A stretch of DNA of 64,000 nt from Fimbriosthenelais zetlandica. Taxonomy: Eukaryota. Below, piece after piece: positions 6,001 to 60,000 of this stretch; the stretch's first letter is position 1; the number at the start of each line of letters is the position of its first letter. The stretch is from NCBI GenBank assembly GCA_977030845.1, contig OZ365112.1, forward strand, positions 17,236,001 through 17,300,000. Direction: 5' to 3'. Position numbers: made by a program.

Positions 6001-9000
6001 AATAAGAGGGCCTTATTGATAAGTATGTACATTTACAATAGTACATCTATGGTGTCTGACAGGCATGTTCCAGGCTTATGACAACCTGTGGTAAGAGCCT
6101 TGAAGAAGGACATTATGACCAGAAAAGCTCAGTTAAAACTACGATCCGTGTAGGCCTAAACAAGGAAATATTGCAAATTTATTAAATGTGGTCAAATAAT
6201 GTATGTTTTAAAGCAGTGGGAGCAATTATAGCCAATCTCACAACATAGGTACACCTTATTTTGCATGCGTCCAGGTCAGCATAGCATGTACACCTGATAC
6301 AAACCTGCAATTACTTGCACCACTTAGATGGCAAGGTGGCCATAGACTGCATAGAGACTCTATGTCCGCTAACGAGTACTGGAGGCCCGGCCTGCCTATA
6401 TAGGGCATCTTCACCCATAACCCAGCTCTCCAGGGATGCACATTGGAGAAGTGTACATTACATTTGAGAATCTCACATGCCATTCATTTGAGTGTAATAG
6501 GCATACTGATAGGCCAGAGGATTCTAACGTTATCAAGCCTTTTCAAAATATACTGTAATCTATGTAATATCTGATACTTTTATCTACTCTATATTATGTA
6601 AAAGAAAGAGACCAATATCTCGTCTGAAATGCCTAAAGACAAACTGTATTCCATTGCCTGACAGTTGCATGGTGAAACATCATTTTTTTAAACGCAGACA
6701 ATAAATCAAATGCTCATACTTCAATCTCTTGAATGGAATTCTCAATCTGATCTTAAATAGCAAAGTGATAGATGATTTCATGACAATGTGAGCAGAGCAA
6801 GAATAGCCAGGAGATGAGATGCTTGTATGAGTGGATGATATAGTGGTATCTACGCCCAAAGATGACACAGAAACATCCATACCGAGATGTTTATCACTGA
6901 ACCCACATCTCTGAGGCCATCCATCACACCCTCCCAGCCAACACAAGGTCACAAAACACCAGCATCATTCTAAATCTCCAATGGAATATCTCTCATCATA
7001 AATTTTAAAAATAAATACATCAAACATGTTGACATTTCTTTTATGGGAAATCTATCTTACGTTATATGGAGGTTGTTCACCATGCATGTATAAAAGATAA
7101 TGCACGCCGAGGAGAAAACACTACAGGTATCGGTACTCGATATGTGGTTACCAGACTCTTGTTTGGTGATATCCTTTGCCAACAAACTACTAATATGCCC
7201 CATTATTTTTGTCTTCCAAACCCGTCAACCATTCTTGTCTTCCAAACGCCAACGAAGCCAGCAAATAACTTGGCTGGAGTGGTCTTTCTGAAATGGTAGT
7301 TACTTCTGGTCCCATTTCACTCACTCCCATTCCCGTTAACATCCTTCCACCTCTTAATTTCCCAACCTCTTTTCCATTTGGCAAACACATTATTCAATTC
7401 TGTCCCTGACGACCATGGTCCCTGGGGTGCTGTTCCTTATCCCAAGTCCAAAGCAGCCCCAACAACCCACATCCTTGTTAATACCCAAACGTCTTGACCC
7501 CTGCCAGCATTGATCCGGGCTCTAGCCAGGCTCATCGAGCTTACCCCACCGGGACAGGCATCAGTTGTACTGAAACAGACACTTCTACCTCCCATATATA
7601 CCACAGAATAAGAGCTAAAATTAGGACAATAATCCTGACAGCAGCATAAACTGAATAAAATATTATGATGCCCAGCGGGAGAAGAAATCAGTTCCCCTAT
7701 GTACATCCTATGTACAACAGAATAGAGAACATGATTAGGGCTCAGGGGAATATGGTTTTCTAGTTTTAATAAAAATTGAAACAAATACTCAAAAGAGTAC
7801 TTGAAAGGTTTTTGCCTTTTTCTGGGCAGTCCTAAAGAGGGATGTGTTTAAGTATGACCTTCCGATTTTCCCCCGGGTTTATGTGATTGATAAAAAGAAA
7901 AATGGAAATGCCCCTTTTGTCATGCAAGGACAGGAATTGTTTGTGTTTCGGTTTCAGGTGAGCTGGATTATTTAGTTCGACTGGTCATTTCAAAGCCTTT
8001 TATAGTTACCTTTCTAAAGGATTCAGAAGTCGAAGAATCAAGGAATTCGAGACAGGTCGTCAGATAAAACGTCCACATCAAATCTGAAATAGATACAAAG
8101 ATGATTATATCACATTTCTTTGGTGATCATTGAAGCCCTTTACACATGAAGAAATGAAGATTCTGGAATCCTACATTCAAGAAAGCCCATTGGACTTCCA
8201 AAGTTATCAATCGTGTGACTATCTCAATACAAAATGTCAAACATATAAGCCTGTACGGGCCCTATGAATGCCACTCTAAAGATGTCACATTGTACCAGGG
8301 AATGAGAAAGGAATGTCTATTTCCCCCCACTTGTTGCTGCCCAAGTCACACACGGGGCGGGGTGTTCAAGCATCAATTGTGTTAACAGTGCACCATTAGA
8401 AGAAGCCATCGGCTATCTACCGGCATTGAGTGCCTGCTCCTCCTACCATTTCCCCATCGGCTTGGGGGCGAGCAGCTCTCAATGACAATCTGCTCGCACT
8501 GATTTGCTCTATCAGTGTGGGTAGAGGCCTGCGATACCAGCCCCATTAGCCGGCTACATGTTTAGGATGGCAATGTAGGTCCCCTTGGGCTATCACAAAG
8601 GCCAGAGAAGAAAGGACTGGACTGGTCCAGGCCCAACTGGACCAATCAGCAGTATCCGGGAAGGTGGTGCAATGCAAGGAGGGGACTGCTAGTCAACAGA
8701 TGGAACACGGTTTGAAAGCTGGATGACAAGATGGGCTAGCACCAAACTGCTGACAGCTATTTACTGGTGCAGAGGAAATTGGTCAGGAGCGTCTCACAGT
8801 GGGAGATGGGCTGGTAACTAGGCCTATAATGGTATGTTCCATGGACGGCTACAACTTTCAACAGATGTTCACGACTAAATGCACTTTTAAAATGTCTGCA
8901 AAGTGGAGGTTCTCAAAATCTAACTCAATTTTACTTTCACTTTCCTTTACAATCTTCTCCAATTTACAAAATGTCAAGAAAAACTACATCAAATGTCTAT

Positions 9001-57000: not shown

Positions 57001-60000
57001 ATCCATTCCTCGACACTCACAAATCCTTCCTCGACACAACTTTTACCTCAGTACAACGACTCAGATGAGATAAAGGAGAAAACCAACATGATAGAACAAA
57101 TGCAAAGAGGCGATACAATTTGACATAATTATCCCAGCAGAGCAAATCAACTGCGAGAGCTTCAATTATCGATGTGTTATCACCTAATTCATTCTCCTCC
57201 CATTATCACATCACTGTCACAAATGAGCGTGGAGGACAAGATGCCAGTTGAAAAAAACACTGTACGCAGTTTGGTAATGGGTGCAGTGGAAACAGGGGTT
57301 ATTTAATAAGAAGGGCTATATATTTATAAGAGTGAAAAGCTCTGGGTCGGAGGCTTCCCCTCCTGCTGACTTACCTAAACACCTTTGTTAGTAAGAAAGC
57401 AATAATGAGAAGTGATGTCTGCCTCGTCTAATAAACTCTAATCACTGCACTTAATTAAAGTTGCGAGGTAGCGGCTAAAGGTAGGCAGCTCCCTTGGTGA
57501 TAAGATATATTATCCCTAACTCACCGAGCACATGTTAAATGCTGGAACGTAGCATAAAATCCCATTATATGGGAATAATTTACTAACACAGAAACTCGGC
57601 AAGCTAATTGTTTCTATGGACCTAATGGCGGTTCACAATGTGAACATATCTTTCTCGATTAATAATGTAAGAGACATTTCGCCATTAAATGCAAAATAAA
57701 TGCTTTCGTCCTCAGGAAATGTTCCATGGCAGTGTTTAGTATGTCTGTGGAAATGCAGAGCAGTGGAATTCATTGGAACGAACAACTAAATGAACCAAGT
57801 TATCTCTCATATTGTCACACTGTGCATCTTCCACAAAAAAGTAAAAATATAGAAGTATCTTACTGTGGCTCATTTATAGCAGGCATGGCGACAGCCAAGT
57901 TCTGAAGCGATATGACTTTATGCGTTGGTGTGTCAAACTAATGATATGCCTGAATACAACTACAGAAAATTGCATACAGCGATGGTGTTAGAACTAAGGG
58001 CAAACGACAAGTACGAAGATGGAAATAGACAGTGAGATAATGTTAAATGTAAGGATGAAAGCAGCTGCTGCTGATTGTGTATTACAGTTGTCAGAATGAA
58101 TACTGGAGCCTACTGGATGAGTAGACCACCATACAACCAACATAGACAGTATGTACAGACTGTTAAAGGTAGAGACTACATGAAGGCTATATGTGTACAT
58201 ATATGGAATATCTCGGTTTTATGAAGAAGGTAACTTAGCCAGACAATACATCATAACATGTCAAGTAAAGTTTGCATTCCCTGTACAACACATCTCATAT
58301 GTATAATTCATGACAATAGAAAAAGATATATGGAAAAGACATCAGTCAGCGAAAAGGCTTACTGTTAATGCGGGGCGATGTGAAGGAGGGATAAGCTAAT
58401 ACCCTATCCCAACACACAAAATGGTCACTTATACTTATTACAAATAATAGTTAAGCCGCTGAAAGGAAATGTAGAAATACCACTGAAAACAAATATGTTA
58501 GCAAAGTGTAAAGTATAGGACACTAACCTGTGGGAAGTACTGTGAGAGCCTCTTCATATACTGTGTAACACAAATCCTCTGCTTCTACGTTCATCGATCC
58601 TAATTTTAGAGACAAAAGTGTTAATATAATAACTCAGACACCAGCAGCCGAAATGTGATAATATTATATGTGGAAAACTTCAACCTAAAATTTACACCTA
58701 CCATTTTCCTGACCTCGGCCAGTGGAATGATTCTCTAGATGTCTTCTTGCAAGGGCGTCCCATGTCTTCTCCGAGTTATGATGGAATAGCTTCAAGCTGG
58801 AAAATAGTAACAATACACCGTCACAGAATTACCCCTTTATGTTCTATATTAGTTTGATTTCAAACTGACAAATATTTTAAAAGCTATACAAACATGTCAT
58901 AATAGAGTTGTTCCCTACTCCCAACAGTTGGACGCCCTGAACTGTGTAGGCAAATCTTACAAGGGCCTGTGATGTAACAGGCTCATAGCCAAACAATCAT
59001 ACCTAACTTGATACCCCCGAAATTACCCAGATCAGAGATTGTTTGGTTATGAGCCTGATATAGTAGAGACCCTTCTTGGCTTTGCCTCTGCAGTTCAGAA
59101 CGTCCAACTGTTGGGAATAGGGAACAACTCTAATAGAAACTGAATATTTCAGATAGTTATAACAATAATTCATTCACACATTTCAATACATTAATATCAC
59201 TTACTGGTCGAAAATATGATCCGCCAAGCTTTTGGCAAATGGGAAGTCTTTAAGTATGGGAAGAAAGGCCAAAACAAAGTCGATAACATCTGTAATAGAA
59301 AATACACTCCCTGAATCAAATGACATCATGGATATTATCAAGCTTTAAGGGCGATGGATTAAGAAATTTACTTCGTCAGAGGAAACTTAACAGCAGAGTC
59401 AGTTGTGAACAACAGTAAGCTATGAAAATAAGTAAGTTAACGAAATATATATATATTATAGTAAGGAATACAACAGTGGCAAAAAAGACATACTTGGGAC
59501 TTGGTCTACAGCCTGTTGGAATACTACTTCAGCAATCTTTCCATCCACTACCACATCAGCTGTTTCTGAATCATCCTACAAATCATAAGTTGAGAAGTAA
59601 TATATTTTAATATTACAAACGTTCTTTATGCATTTAGATAATATTCAATCAATCATAAGTCAGAAAGCCAATGCCTTCATATCCACATTGATATTGCTTA
59701 GAAATAATAAGCTTAAGATGGGAACAACCAATGTTGCATGCCAATATATATGCAAAACTTACAACATCCATAAGTGCAATACCAAGGACCTCTCTTCGTT
59801 TCTTCAACTGTAAAAAAAAATCGCATGAATTAATAGGTAAATTAAATTGACCAGTAATTATATTCACACATATGGTATATATTTTGGTGATCCTTCAAGT
59901 TAATTACCCATTTCGGTTTAATAAAGAAGCCGTAGTTAATTTGTATTCGATTAAACTGACGACAGTACCTTATCAACGTTGAGTAGCTCCATTCGAAAAT

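What the first reader, a model, noticed from the sequence alone, without database searches (positions are those of the whole stretch)
8084..58527. One 50-kb intron in an otherwise compact housekeeping gene, hosting an antisense gene
Seen: introns 1-13 of UTP6 are 102-446 bp, then intron 14 is 50,444 bp and intron 15 is 7,657 bp, so intron 14 is more than 100 times the largest upstream intron. Exons 14, 15 and 16 are phase-compatible and collinear with UTP6. Inference: the intron may have grown by capturing a whole + strand transcription unit with its regulatory DNA. The two genes would then be transcribed through each other, with possible transcriptional interference or delay of a ribosome-biogenesis gene in cells expressing the nested gene. 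An assembly join is the mundane alternative.
Basis: partly seen in the sequence, partly recalled or inferred. Interest (0 to 1): 0.65.

Follow-up and report, generated by a model that had tools for sequence, protein, structure and literature searches.

The report
Gene nested inside giant UTP6 intron
A ribosome-assembly gene (UTP6) of a non-human invertebrate has one real 50-kb intron that carries an intact, conserved small membrane-protein gene on the opposite strand, which is an ordinary "gene within a gene" layout rather than a new kind of feature.

Summary
UTP6 lies on the minus strand. Exons 1-14 sit in 3.9 kb (62407-58528) with introns of 111-446 bp. Intron 14 is then 50,444 bp (58527-8084) and intron 15 is 7,657 bp (8009-353). 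All 15 complete introns are GT-AG, and exon phases agree. A profile of 31 UTP6 orthologues ranks 14 minus-strand pieces first among 4,453 six-frame pieces, all collinear. Exons 14, 15 and 16 cover profile positions 295-315, 316-340 and 341-383, and the intron holds no second copy of exon 15.

The intron carries one detectable gene, a plus-strand ORF at 46151-46948 (265 aa). An unnamed protein matches it at 88% identity from start to stop, and 45 clusters match at E<=1e-3. It has an N-terminal membrane helix and a disordered tail, and fits no known family.

Its coding part is 1.6% of the intron, and gene-free intron 15 is also long, so "capture explains the size" is unproven. A simple assembly misjoin is unlikely. 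Interference between the two genes was not tested. This is a new member of a known kind, of low interest. The window is not human. The spliced model was searched exon by exon only and was never joined.

The parts
58528..62407 (-). UTP6 coding exons 1-14 (from the ATG at 62407) with 13 short introns of 111-446 bp. This is the compact 5' block.
   Evidence: tblastn with P0001. In the profile of 31 orthologues, 12 of the 14 top-ranked pieces lie here. Splice sites and phases. Exon 1 aligns to residues 1-30 and exon 8 to residues 141-182 of human UTP6 chain 7mq8_LP.
60829..60849 (-). UTP6 exon 5, a 21-bp microexon of 7 codons in phase 0/0.
   Evidence: It fills exactly the 7 profile positions missing between exons 4 and 6. 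It has a pyrimidine-rich acceptor and a GTAAGT donor.
8084..58527 (-). UTP6 intron 14, 50,444 bp. Donor CAG|GTTAGT, acceptor ...TATTTCAG|A, phase 1.
   Evidence: The self-comparison found one short palindrome (56979-57036, 58 nt) and no other internal repeat. No Rfam family and no tRNA. No Pfam domain in the pieces scanned. G+C is 0.415 and plus-strand AT skew is +0.067.
8010..8083 (-). UTP6 exon 15, 74 bp, phase 1 in and 0 out.
   Evidence: Profile positions 316-340, 10.7 bits, E 0.036. Controls reached at most 5.4 bits. 95 of 101 orthologue hits are co-located near residue 324.
353..8009 (-). UTP6 intron 15, 7,657 bp. Donor AAG|GTAACT, acceptor ...TATTTCCAG|A, phase 0.
   Evidence: No gene detected in it.
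275..352 (-). UTP6 exon 16, 78 bp, phase 0/0, donor GTGAGT at 274. The rest of the gene lies beyond the window start.
   Evidence: Profile positions 341-383, 16.0 bits, E 9e-4. Sequence read. 61 of 96 orthologue hits lie near residue 359, but the reversed control also co-located in 41 of 63, so here the bit score (33.7 against 18.0) is the better measure.
46151..46948 (+). Nested gene: a single-exon CDS of 265 codons plus a TAG stop. It encodes an N-terminally anchored single-pass membrane protein of no named family.
   Evidence: 45 clusters at E<=1e-3, 21 at <=1e-10 and 4 at <=1e-30, with homologues starting at this Met. P0168 matches at 88% (234/267) from first to last residue. A stop-free stretch of this length is expected 0.0001 times. 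AlphaFold2 gives helix 2-38 at pLDDT 80-97, and 142 of 265 residues fall below 50.
46025..46150 (+). Acceptor-like site (pyrimidine tract plus AG ending at 46040) and a 110-nt leader before the ATG, which sits in a CCACCATG context. This suggests an upstream 5'-UTR exon of the nested gene.
   Evidence: Sequence read. This is inference only, with no RNA evidence.
62600..63400 (.). CpG-rich patch just upstream of UTP6 exon 1, the likely UTP6 promoter.
   Evidence: CpG observed/expected is 1.0-1.37 here, against 0.3-0.6 in the 2-kb windows over the rest of the window.

Best explanation
This is a genuine host/nested gene pair in a non-human, lophotrochozoan-like invertebrate genome. UTP6 is transcribed on the minus strand, probably from a CpG-rich promoter near 62.6-63.4 kb. 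Its first 14 exons are packed into 3.9 kb. Polymerase must then cross a 50.4-kb intron and a 7.7-kb intron before reaching exons 15 and 16, and both introns are removed at canonical GT-AG sites. Inside intron 14, on the opposite strand, sits an independent, intact, conserved gene whose whole coding sequence is one exon (46151-46948). It encodes a 265-aa protein with an N-terminal membrane anchor and a mostly disordered, acidic cytoplasmic tail carrying short conserved motifs.

Because the gene is antisense, its splice and poly(A) signals are not read in the UTP6 pre-mRNA, so the host gene still splices normally.

The exons on both sides of the intron are ancestral UTP6 coding exons. The nested gene therefore most likely arrived by insertion or relocation into an existing intron, not by UTP6 gaining new exons around a neighbouring gene. 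The length of the intron is most likely general intron growth, which intron 15 shares, and not the nested gene itself.

Shown: the exon-intron anatomy, the phases, the integrity and conservation of both coding sequences, and the strand arrangement. Inferred: that the junctions are used in vivo, that the nested gene has its own promoter and a 5'-UTR exon, the route of origin, and any interference or delay.
For: Exon map with GT-AG at all 15 complete introns and consistent phases. In the profile of 31 UTP6 orthologues against 4,453 six-frame pieces, the 14 best hits are all on the minus strand and collinear from profile position 1 to 383. Exons 14, 15 and 16 abut at 315|316 and 340|341. Controls: reversed peptides reached 3.6 bits at most and five shuffles 5.4 bits at most. 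Within the intron, the next best match to the exon-15 part of the profile is 1.2 bits or less, and the self-comparison found no duplicate (4 repeat pairs in the whole window).

Plus-strand AT skew is positive in 30 of 32 windows of 2 kb. It is about equal in intron 14 (0.067), intron 15 (0.069) and the compact block (0.076), but 0.001 in the 1.6-kb upstream flank. This fits one minus-strand transcription unit.

Nested gene. The broad taxon agrees for both genes. The best named relatives of the closest UTP6 homologue (P0001) are lophotrochozoans, with Lingula anatina at 50%. The only named relative of the nested protein is from the annelid Paralvinella palmiformis.

Published background (Introduction passages only): most nested genes lie in an intron in opposite orientation, and nearly all are thought to arise by insertion into a pre-existing intron (PMC3933685). 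[quoted passage not shown]
Against: No RNA or read data were available, so neither the 58528->8083 junction nor transcription of the nested gene was seen. Taken alone, exon 15 is weak evidence (E 0.036). Exon 15 and exon 16 peptides found nothing in the PDB sequence search, not even human UTP6. The 3' ~230 codons of UTP6 are outside the window, so the gene was not seen whole. A second UTP6 copy elsewhere in the genome cannot be excluded.

Pfam scanning is insensitive to short exons. UTP6's own exons 1 and 8 reached only E 0.0019 and 0.009. Further multi-exon genes in the intron could therefore have been missed, and 110 of the 334 pieces of 50-74 aa were not scanned.

The skew argument has only 1.6 kb of non-genic sequence as its baseline.
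Confidence: 0.8

Rival explanations
1. Assembly artefact: about 50 kb from elsewhere in the same genome, carrying the small membrane-protein gene, was wrongly placed between exons 14 and 15, and the true intron is short.
For: The size contrast itself. The long introns are compositionally unlike the short ones, with G+C 0.415 against 0.329. No read data were available to check.
Against: The window has no N. A simple chimeric join would not restore the same gene, strand, order and phase on the far side. Intron 15, which lies beyond exon 15, has the same G+C and the same skew as intron 14. Tetranucleotide use is even in all 16 chunks of 4 kb, with no block-like outlier. No repeats or duplicated exons sit at the intron borders that could mislead an assembler.
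Confidence: 0.06
2. The intron owes its size to the nested gene. A whole transcription unit with tens of kilobases of its own regulatory DNA was inserted, or an inversion or translocation placed it there. Most of the 50 kb is then that gene's regulatory landscape, kept by selection.
For: The nested CDS exon is preceded by an acceptor-like site, so its transcription start probably lies further upstream within the 38 kb to its left. CpG-richer patches at 33.6-34.2, 30.6-31.2 and 11.6-12.3 kb could be promoters. The intron holds almost no internal repeats and no transposon protein relics in the pieces scanned.
Against: The CDS is 1.6% of the intron. Intron 15 is also long and has no gene. The strand skew across the intron follows UTP6's strand, not the nested gene's, and does not flip around the nested gene. 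No orthologous locus could be compared, so neither the order of events nor conservation of the non-coding DNA is known.
Confidence: 0.2
3. The locus is not one working gene. Exons 1-14 and exons 15-16 would be remnants of a disrupted or duplicated UTP6, with the working copy elsewhere.
For: The 3' end of the gene is outside the window. Exons 15 and 16 match only weakly on their own.
Against: All 16 exons are open, in phase and flanked by canonical splice sites. No exon is duplicated or missing between profile positions 1 and 383. The window holds no other UTP6 5' part that could serve exons 15-16.
Confidence: 0.05

Closest known systems
Opposite-strand nested (intronic) protein-coding genes of animals, for example LRRTM1-3 inside alpha-catenin (CTNNA) introns, or 2mit inside intron 11 of Drosophila timeless2
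   Same: A small gene with a single coding exon, encoding a single-pass membrane protein, lies wholly inside one long intron of a larger gene, in the opposite orientation. It is flanked by coding exons of the host (PMC3933685 Introduction passages; PMC3786989 abstract start).
   Different: The host here is a ribosome-biogenesis gene whose other seen introns are tiny. The nested protein has no LRR or other known domain and belongs to no named family. Conservation of the arrangement in other species is unknown.
NF1 intron hosting OMG, EVI2A and EVI2B on the opposite strand (recalled from memory, not from any call)
   Same: The textbook case of small membrane-protein genes nested antisense in one long intron of a large gene.
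   Different: A different host, three nested genes, and a vertebrate. The resemblance is by layout only, and no homology was tested or claimed.
UTP6 / U3 small nucleolar RNA-associated protein 6 (HAT-repeat component of the small-subunit processome)
   Same: The host gene's exons match UTP6 orthologues collinearly over profile positions 1-383. Exon 8 aligns to residues 141-182 and exon 1 to residues 1-30 of human UTP6 chain 7mq8_LP.
   Different: Only about 366 of about 590 codons are in the window. The joined protein was not built or searched.

Membership tests
Host/nested gene pair (opposite-strand intronic gene) | The nested gene lies wholly within one intron of the host. | tested here: met
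   The CDS 46151-46948 lies inside intron 14 (8084-58527). The transcript ends of the nested gene are unknown. The nearest host exons are 38 kb and 11.6 kb away.
Host/nested gene pair (opposite-strand intronic gene) | The exons on both sides belong to one host gene. | tested here: met
   Profile positions 295-315, 316-340 and 341-383 fall on exons 14, 15 and 16. They share one strand, GT-AG sites and compatible phases. This rests on sequence only, with no RNA evidence.
Host/nested gene pair (opposite-strand intronic gene) | The nested gene is a working gene of its own, conserved and transcribed. | tested here: inconclusive
   Coding conservation is met: 88% identity over the full length to P0168, and 45 clusters at E<=1e-3. 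Transcription from this locus could not be tested.
UTP6 (Pfam U3_assoc_6 PF08640 plus HAT repeats) | An N-terminal U3_assoc_6 domain. | tested here: inconclusive
   Exon 1 alone scores 18.5 bits (E 0.0019), below the curated cut-off of 24.7. Exon by exon, the orthologue profile matches positions 1-97 strongly. The joined domain was not scanned because the joined step was left out.
UTP6 (Pfam U3_assoc_6 PF08640 plus HAT repeats) | Collinear match to UTP6 orthologues along the protein. | tested here: met
   The 14 best of 4,453 pieces are collinear on one strand. Per-exon blastp hit 12-15 of the 16 exons in each of the 25 top-scoring orthologues. The C-terminal ~230 residues are outside the window.
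Retrogene (nested gene that arrived by retroposition) | An intron-free coding sequence. | tested here: met
   One open frame runs from Met to stop, and homologues align end to end.
Retrogene (nested gene that arrived by retroposition) | A poly(A) remnant, flanking target-site duplications, and an intron-bearing parent copy. | tested here: not met
   There is no A run of 8 or more and no A-rich 30-mer in 46949-53000. The self-comparison found no flanking direct repeats. A parent copy is not testable. An old insertion would have lost these marks, so this does not exclude the route.
Recursively spliced long intron | Ratchet sites with a juxtaposed acceptor and donor consensus on the host strand. 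| tested here: not met
   The pattern YYYYNCAGGTRAGT (a consensus recalled from memory) had 0 matches on either strand, against 0.06 expected.

The most novel reading that the evidence does not exclude
The pairing is not accidental. The UTP6 intron-14 / membrane-protein gene nesting would be conserved across spiralians. Antisense transcription of the nested gene, together with the transcription time of the 58 kb of introns, would then tune the output of a ribosome-biogenesis factor in the cells that express the nested gene. Separately, the nested protein would found a new family of N-terminally anchored adaptor proteins. Its acidic cluster followed by a Tyr-x-x-Phe motif looks like a membrane-sorting signal; that resemblance is recalled, not tested.
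Probability: 0.07. Interest if true: 0.55.

Novelty: new member of a known kind. Interest (0 to 1): 0.22.

Why it matters
Genes nested antisense in long introns are common in animals, so this adds an example and not a principle. Two points give it modest value.

First, the host is a housekeeping ribosome-biogenesis gene. Highly expressed genes usually have short introns (abstract start of PMC2424036), and here a 3.9-kb block of 14 exons is followed by 58 kb of intron. If RNA data become available, the locus would be a clean natural case for testing intron delay and antisense interference.

Second, the nested gene belongs to a conserved but unnamed family of small membrane proteins (45 clusters), which annotation pipelines may miss or leave as 'hypothetical'.

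For annotation, the practical messages are these. Exons 15 and 16 belong to the same UTP6 model as exons 1-14. Exon 5 is a 21-bp microexon. The plus-strand ORF should be called as a separate gene.

Tried and rejected
1. **Other genes or transposon relics in the long introns.** I scanned with Pfam 95 of 95 six-frame pieces of 75 aa or more (one sub-threshold DUF5118 match) and 224 of 334 pieces of 50-74 aa (0 families). The last 110 pieces were not scanned. This test is weak, because UTP6's own exons barely register in Pfam.

2. **Rfam and tRNA.** Rfam at gathering thresholds gave 0 matches. The tRNA scan gave 0.

3. **A family for the nested protein.** Pfam found nothing significant on the protein or on the 13 members of alignment A1. 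The Atlas feature search reached 0.89 at best with mixed families, which is not usable. The PDB profile search gave one chance-level hit at E 0.038.

4. **A C-terminal extension of the nested protein past its stop.** At first I misread the downstream frame. Checking showed that the in-frame continuation has no likeness to homologues' ends, and that P0168 ends at the same residue. Rejected.

5. **Recursive splice sites.** None found.

6. **Retrogene marks.** None found.

7. **The 183-aa stop-free stretch at 20833-21381.** No Pfam match and no Atlas hit. Treated as non-coding.

8. **Exon 15 and 16 peptides against PDB sequences.** 0 hits each.

9. **The ORF in the upstream flank, 62801-63067.** No PDB or Pfam match.

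10. **Literature.** 'UTP6' together with 'nested gene' found 0 papers.

11. **Left undone.**
There was therefore no full-length search, tree or fold of this UTP6.
   - Paper supplements are closed, so nested-gene lists in the supplements of PMC3933685 and PMC3192792 were not seen.

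
Full report
**What the window is**

The 64,000 bases contain no N. G+C is about 0.41. CpG is depleted, with observed/expected 0.3-0.6 in the 2-kb windows, except for a patch at about 62.6-63.4 kb where it reaches 1.0-1.37.

I do not take the window for human. Its UTP6 exon 1 differs from the human PDB chain 7mq8_LP at about half the positions. Its closest UTP6 relative in the protein collection is an unnamed 595-aa protein, P0001, at 72% identity over one exon. 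The best named relatives of P0001 are lophotrochozoans, led by Lingula anatina at 50%, then a nemertean, molluscs and an annelid. Summed exon by exon, the window's UTP6 is about equally close to the brachiopod, scallop, annelid and nemertean proteins. It is therefore a lophotrochozoan-like invertebrate with no close named relative in the set.

**Checking the observation**

tblastn with P0001 placed the UTP6 exons on the minus strand. So did a profile built from 31 UTP6 proteins (P0001 plus 30 named references), searched against all 4,453 six-frame stop-to-stop pieces of the window.
- The 14 best pieces are all on the minus strand.
- They are strictly collinear with the profile, from position 1 (62.4 kb) to position 383 (0.3 kb).
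- Reversed peptides reached 3.6 bits at most, and five shuffled sets 5.4 bits at most.

I then enumerated splice sites and phases, which gave 16 exons. One is a 21-bp microexon (exon 5, 60849-60829) that supplies exactly the seven profile positions missing between its neighbours.

Introns 1-13 are 405, 446, 278, 138, 124, 177, 138, 157, 161, 187, 204, 408 and 111 bp. Intron 14 is 50,444 bp (58527-8084) and intron 15 is 7,657 bp (8009-353). All 15 complete introns are GT-AG. The exon 13/14 boundary has an equally plausible alternative (58714/58599, intron 114 bp, same phase).

The phases fit. Exon 14 leaves one base. Exon 15 (74 bp) supplies two bases plus 24 codons. Exon 16 (352-275) starts and ends in phase 0.

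All of this was done exon by exon.

**Are exons 15 and 16 really the next exons?**

They cover profile positions 316-340 and 341-383, directly after exon 14 at 295-315.
- The scores are modest: 10.7 bits (E 0.036) and 16.0 bits (E 9e-4) for the whole six-frame set. Both exceed every control.
- The exon 15 peptide hit 101 of 120 UTP6 orthologues, 95 of them at the same place near residue 324. For the reversed peptide, 6 of 103 were co-located.
- For exon 16 co-location is less telling (61 of 96 against 41 of 63 for the reversed control), but its best score is 33.7 bits against 18.0.
- Against this, neither peptide found anything in the PDB sequence search, not even human UTP6.

Nothing else in the 50 kb resembles exon 15. 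The next best match to that part of the profile is 1.2 bits or less. The window-against-itself comparison found only four repeat pairs, none involving an exon.

**What is in the intron**

One gene is detectable, a plus-strand open frame of 265 codons from the ATG at 46151 to the TAG at 46946-46948. A stop-free stretch that long is expected 0.0001 times in this window.
- An exhaustive search of 1.84 billion representative proteins found 45 clusters at E<=1e-3, 21 at <=1e-10 and 4 at <=1e-30. The homologues begin at their residue 1 opposite this Met.
- The word-based search added P0168 (264 aa, unnamed source). It is 88% identical (234/267) from first to last residue and ends at the same place.
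- Of ten clusters looked up, only one carries a name: a hypothetical protein of the annelid Paralvinella palmiformis.
- The alignment shows a nearly invariant N-terminal hydrophobic segment. It also shows short conserved motifs in the tail: a His-Thr-Phe-His-Phe-Pro block, and an acidic Ser/Asp/Glu cluster followed by Asn-Tyr-Gly-His-Phe.
- AlphaFold2 on a 22-sequence alignment gives a confident helix at residues 2-38 (pLDDT 80-97), a short helix at 224-242, and 142 of 265 residues below pLDDT 50.
- There is no Pfam family, no usable Atlas hit and no PDB relative.

I read it as a single-pass, N-terminally anchored membrane protein with a disordered cytoplasmic tail, from an uncharacterised family.

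A pyrimidine tract plus AG ends at 46040, 110 nt before an ATG in a CCACCATG context. The gene probably has at least one upstream 5'-UTR exon, but that is inference. Several poly(A) signals lie downstream, and none can be chosen.

**What the rest of the intron looks like**

- Apart from one 58-nt palindrome (56979-57036) there are no internal repeats. There are no tRNAs and no Rfam families at gathering scores.
- No Pfam domain was found in 95 of 95 pieces of 75 aa or more, or in 224 of 334 pieces of 50-74 aa. The other 110 were not scanned. This is weak evidence of emptiness, because UTP6's own exons 1 and 8 reach only E 0.0019 and 0.009 in Pfam.
- Dispersed transposon copies cannot be recognised from a single window.
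- The 13 short introns have G+C 0.329, against 0.415 for intron 14 and 0.403 for intron 15.
- Plus-strand AT skew is positive in 30 of 32 windows of 2 kb. It is almost the same in intron 14 (0.067), intron 15 (0.069) and the compact block (0.076), but 0.001 in the 1.6-kb flank upstream of exon 1. UTP6's sense strand is therefore T-rich all along, as expected if the whole 62 kb has long been one minus-strand transcription unit. The skew does not flip around the nested gene. The baseline is short, so I treat this as supporting evidence, not proof.
- Tetranucleotide use is even across all 16 chunks of 4 kb (r 0.83-0.94).

**Interpretation**

The layout is the classic host/nested pair. Introduction passages of two papers set the background. 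Most nested genes lie in an intron of a larger gene in the opposite orientation, and nearly all protein-coding ones are thought to have arisen by insertion into a pre-existing intron. Single-coding-exon ones presumably arrived by retroposition (PMC3933685). [quoted passage not shown] Evidence for expression coupling is mixed (PMC3192792).

Here both flanks are ancestral UTP6 coding exons. UTP6 therefore did not engulf a neighbour by gaining exons; the small gene came into the intron. Retroposition marks are absent: there is no A-rich remnant and there are no flanking direct repeats. An old event would have lost them.

The CDS is 1.6% of the intron. Intron 15 is 17 times the largest short intron without any detectable gene. 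The two long introns are compositionally alike. The idea is not excluded either, because the nested gene's start may lie far upstream. CpG-richer patches at 33.6-34.2, 30.6-31.2 and 11.6-12.3 kb are candidate starts.

Interference and intron delay are legitimate published concepts (PMC3192792 passages; abstract start of PMC4209130). Here they are untested inference.

**The assembly-join alternative**

A simple chimeric join is excluded by the return to the same gene, strand, order and phase after 50 kb. An erroneous insertion cannot be excluded without reads. It has no positive support: there is no N, no border repeats and no compositional block.

**Novelty**

A full-text search for 'UTP6' with 'nested gene' found 0 papers, so this particular pair seems undescribed. 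The kind of feature is well known. I rate it a new member of a known kind, with low interest.

**What stayed unchecked**
- RNA and read support.
- Orthologous loci.
- The 3' end of UTP6, which is outside the window.
- Paper supplements, which are closed.

Noticed in passing
window 60829-60849 (-): UTP6 exon 5 is a 21-bp microexon of 7 codons, between introns of 138 and 124 bp. Gene predictors easily miss it.
   Followed up: yes
window 58900-59135 (UTP6 intron 12): A foldback element with 99-nt arms, 82% complementary, and a 38-nt loop. The predicted hairpin is -140.6 kcal/mol, z -16.7 against 200 shuffles. It looks like a MITE and makes up 236 of the intron's 408 bp.
   Followed up: partly
window 62600-63400: A CpG-rich patch (observed/expected 1.0-1.37) just upstream of UTP6 exon 1, in an otherwise CpG-depleted window. 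It is probably the promoter. Whether a divergent gene starts here is unknown: the ORF 62801-63067 (+) has no Pfam or PDB match.
   Followed up: partly
window 1-62407: A>T on the plus strand in 30 of 32 windows of 2 kb, so UTP6's sense strand is T-rich throughout. The skew vanishes in the flank 62408-64000.
   Followed up: partly
window 46151-46948 (+): The nested protein belongs to a conserved, unnamed family. It has an N-terminal membrane helix, a disordered acidic tail, and an acidic cluster followed by a Tyr-x-x-Phe motif that resembles a sorting signal. That resemblance is recalled, not tested.
   Followed up: partly
window 46041-46150 (+): The putative leader of the nested gene's coding exon holds a very short upstream ATG...TGA frame before the main ATG (read).
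   Followed up: no
window 20833-21381 (+), 27241-27726 (+), 50068-50580 (-), 43639-44094 (-): Four stop-free stretches of 152-183 codons outside the nested gene, where about 0.66 of 150 or more are expected under a simple base-composition model. They have no Pfam match. The longest had no Atlas hit. Unexplained; possibly decayed coding sequence or chance.
   Followed up: partly
window 63794-63992: Short dispersed direct repeats (42-47 nt, 87-88% identity) at the right edge of the window.
   Followed up: no
window 33600-34200, 30600-31200, 11600-12300: The CpG-richest patches inside intron 14 (observed/expected 0.8-1.0, G+C up to 0.50). They are candidate start sites for the nested gene or other regulatory elements.
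   Followed up: no
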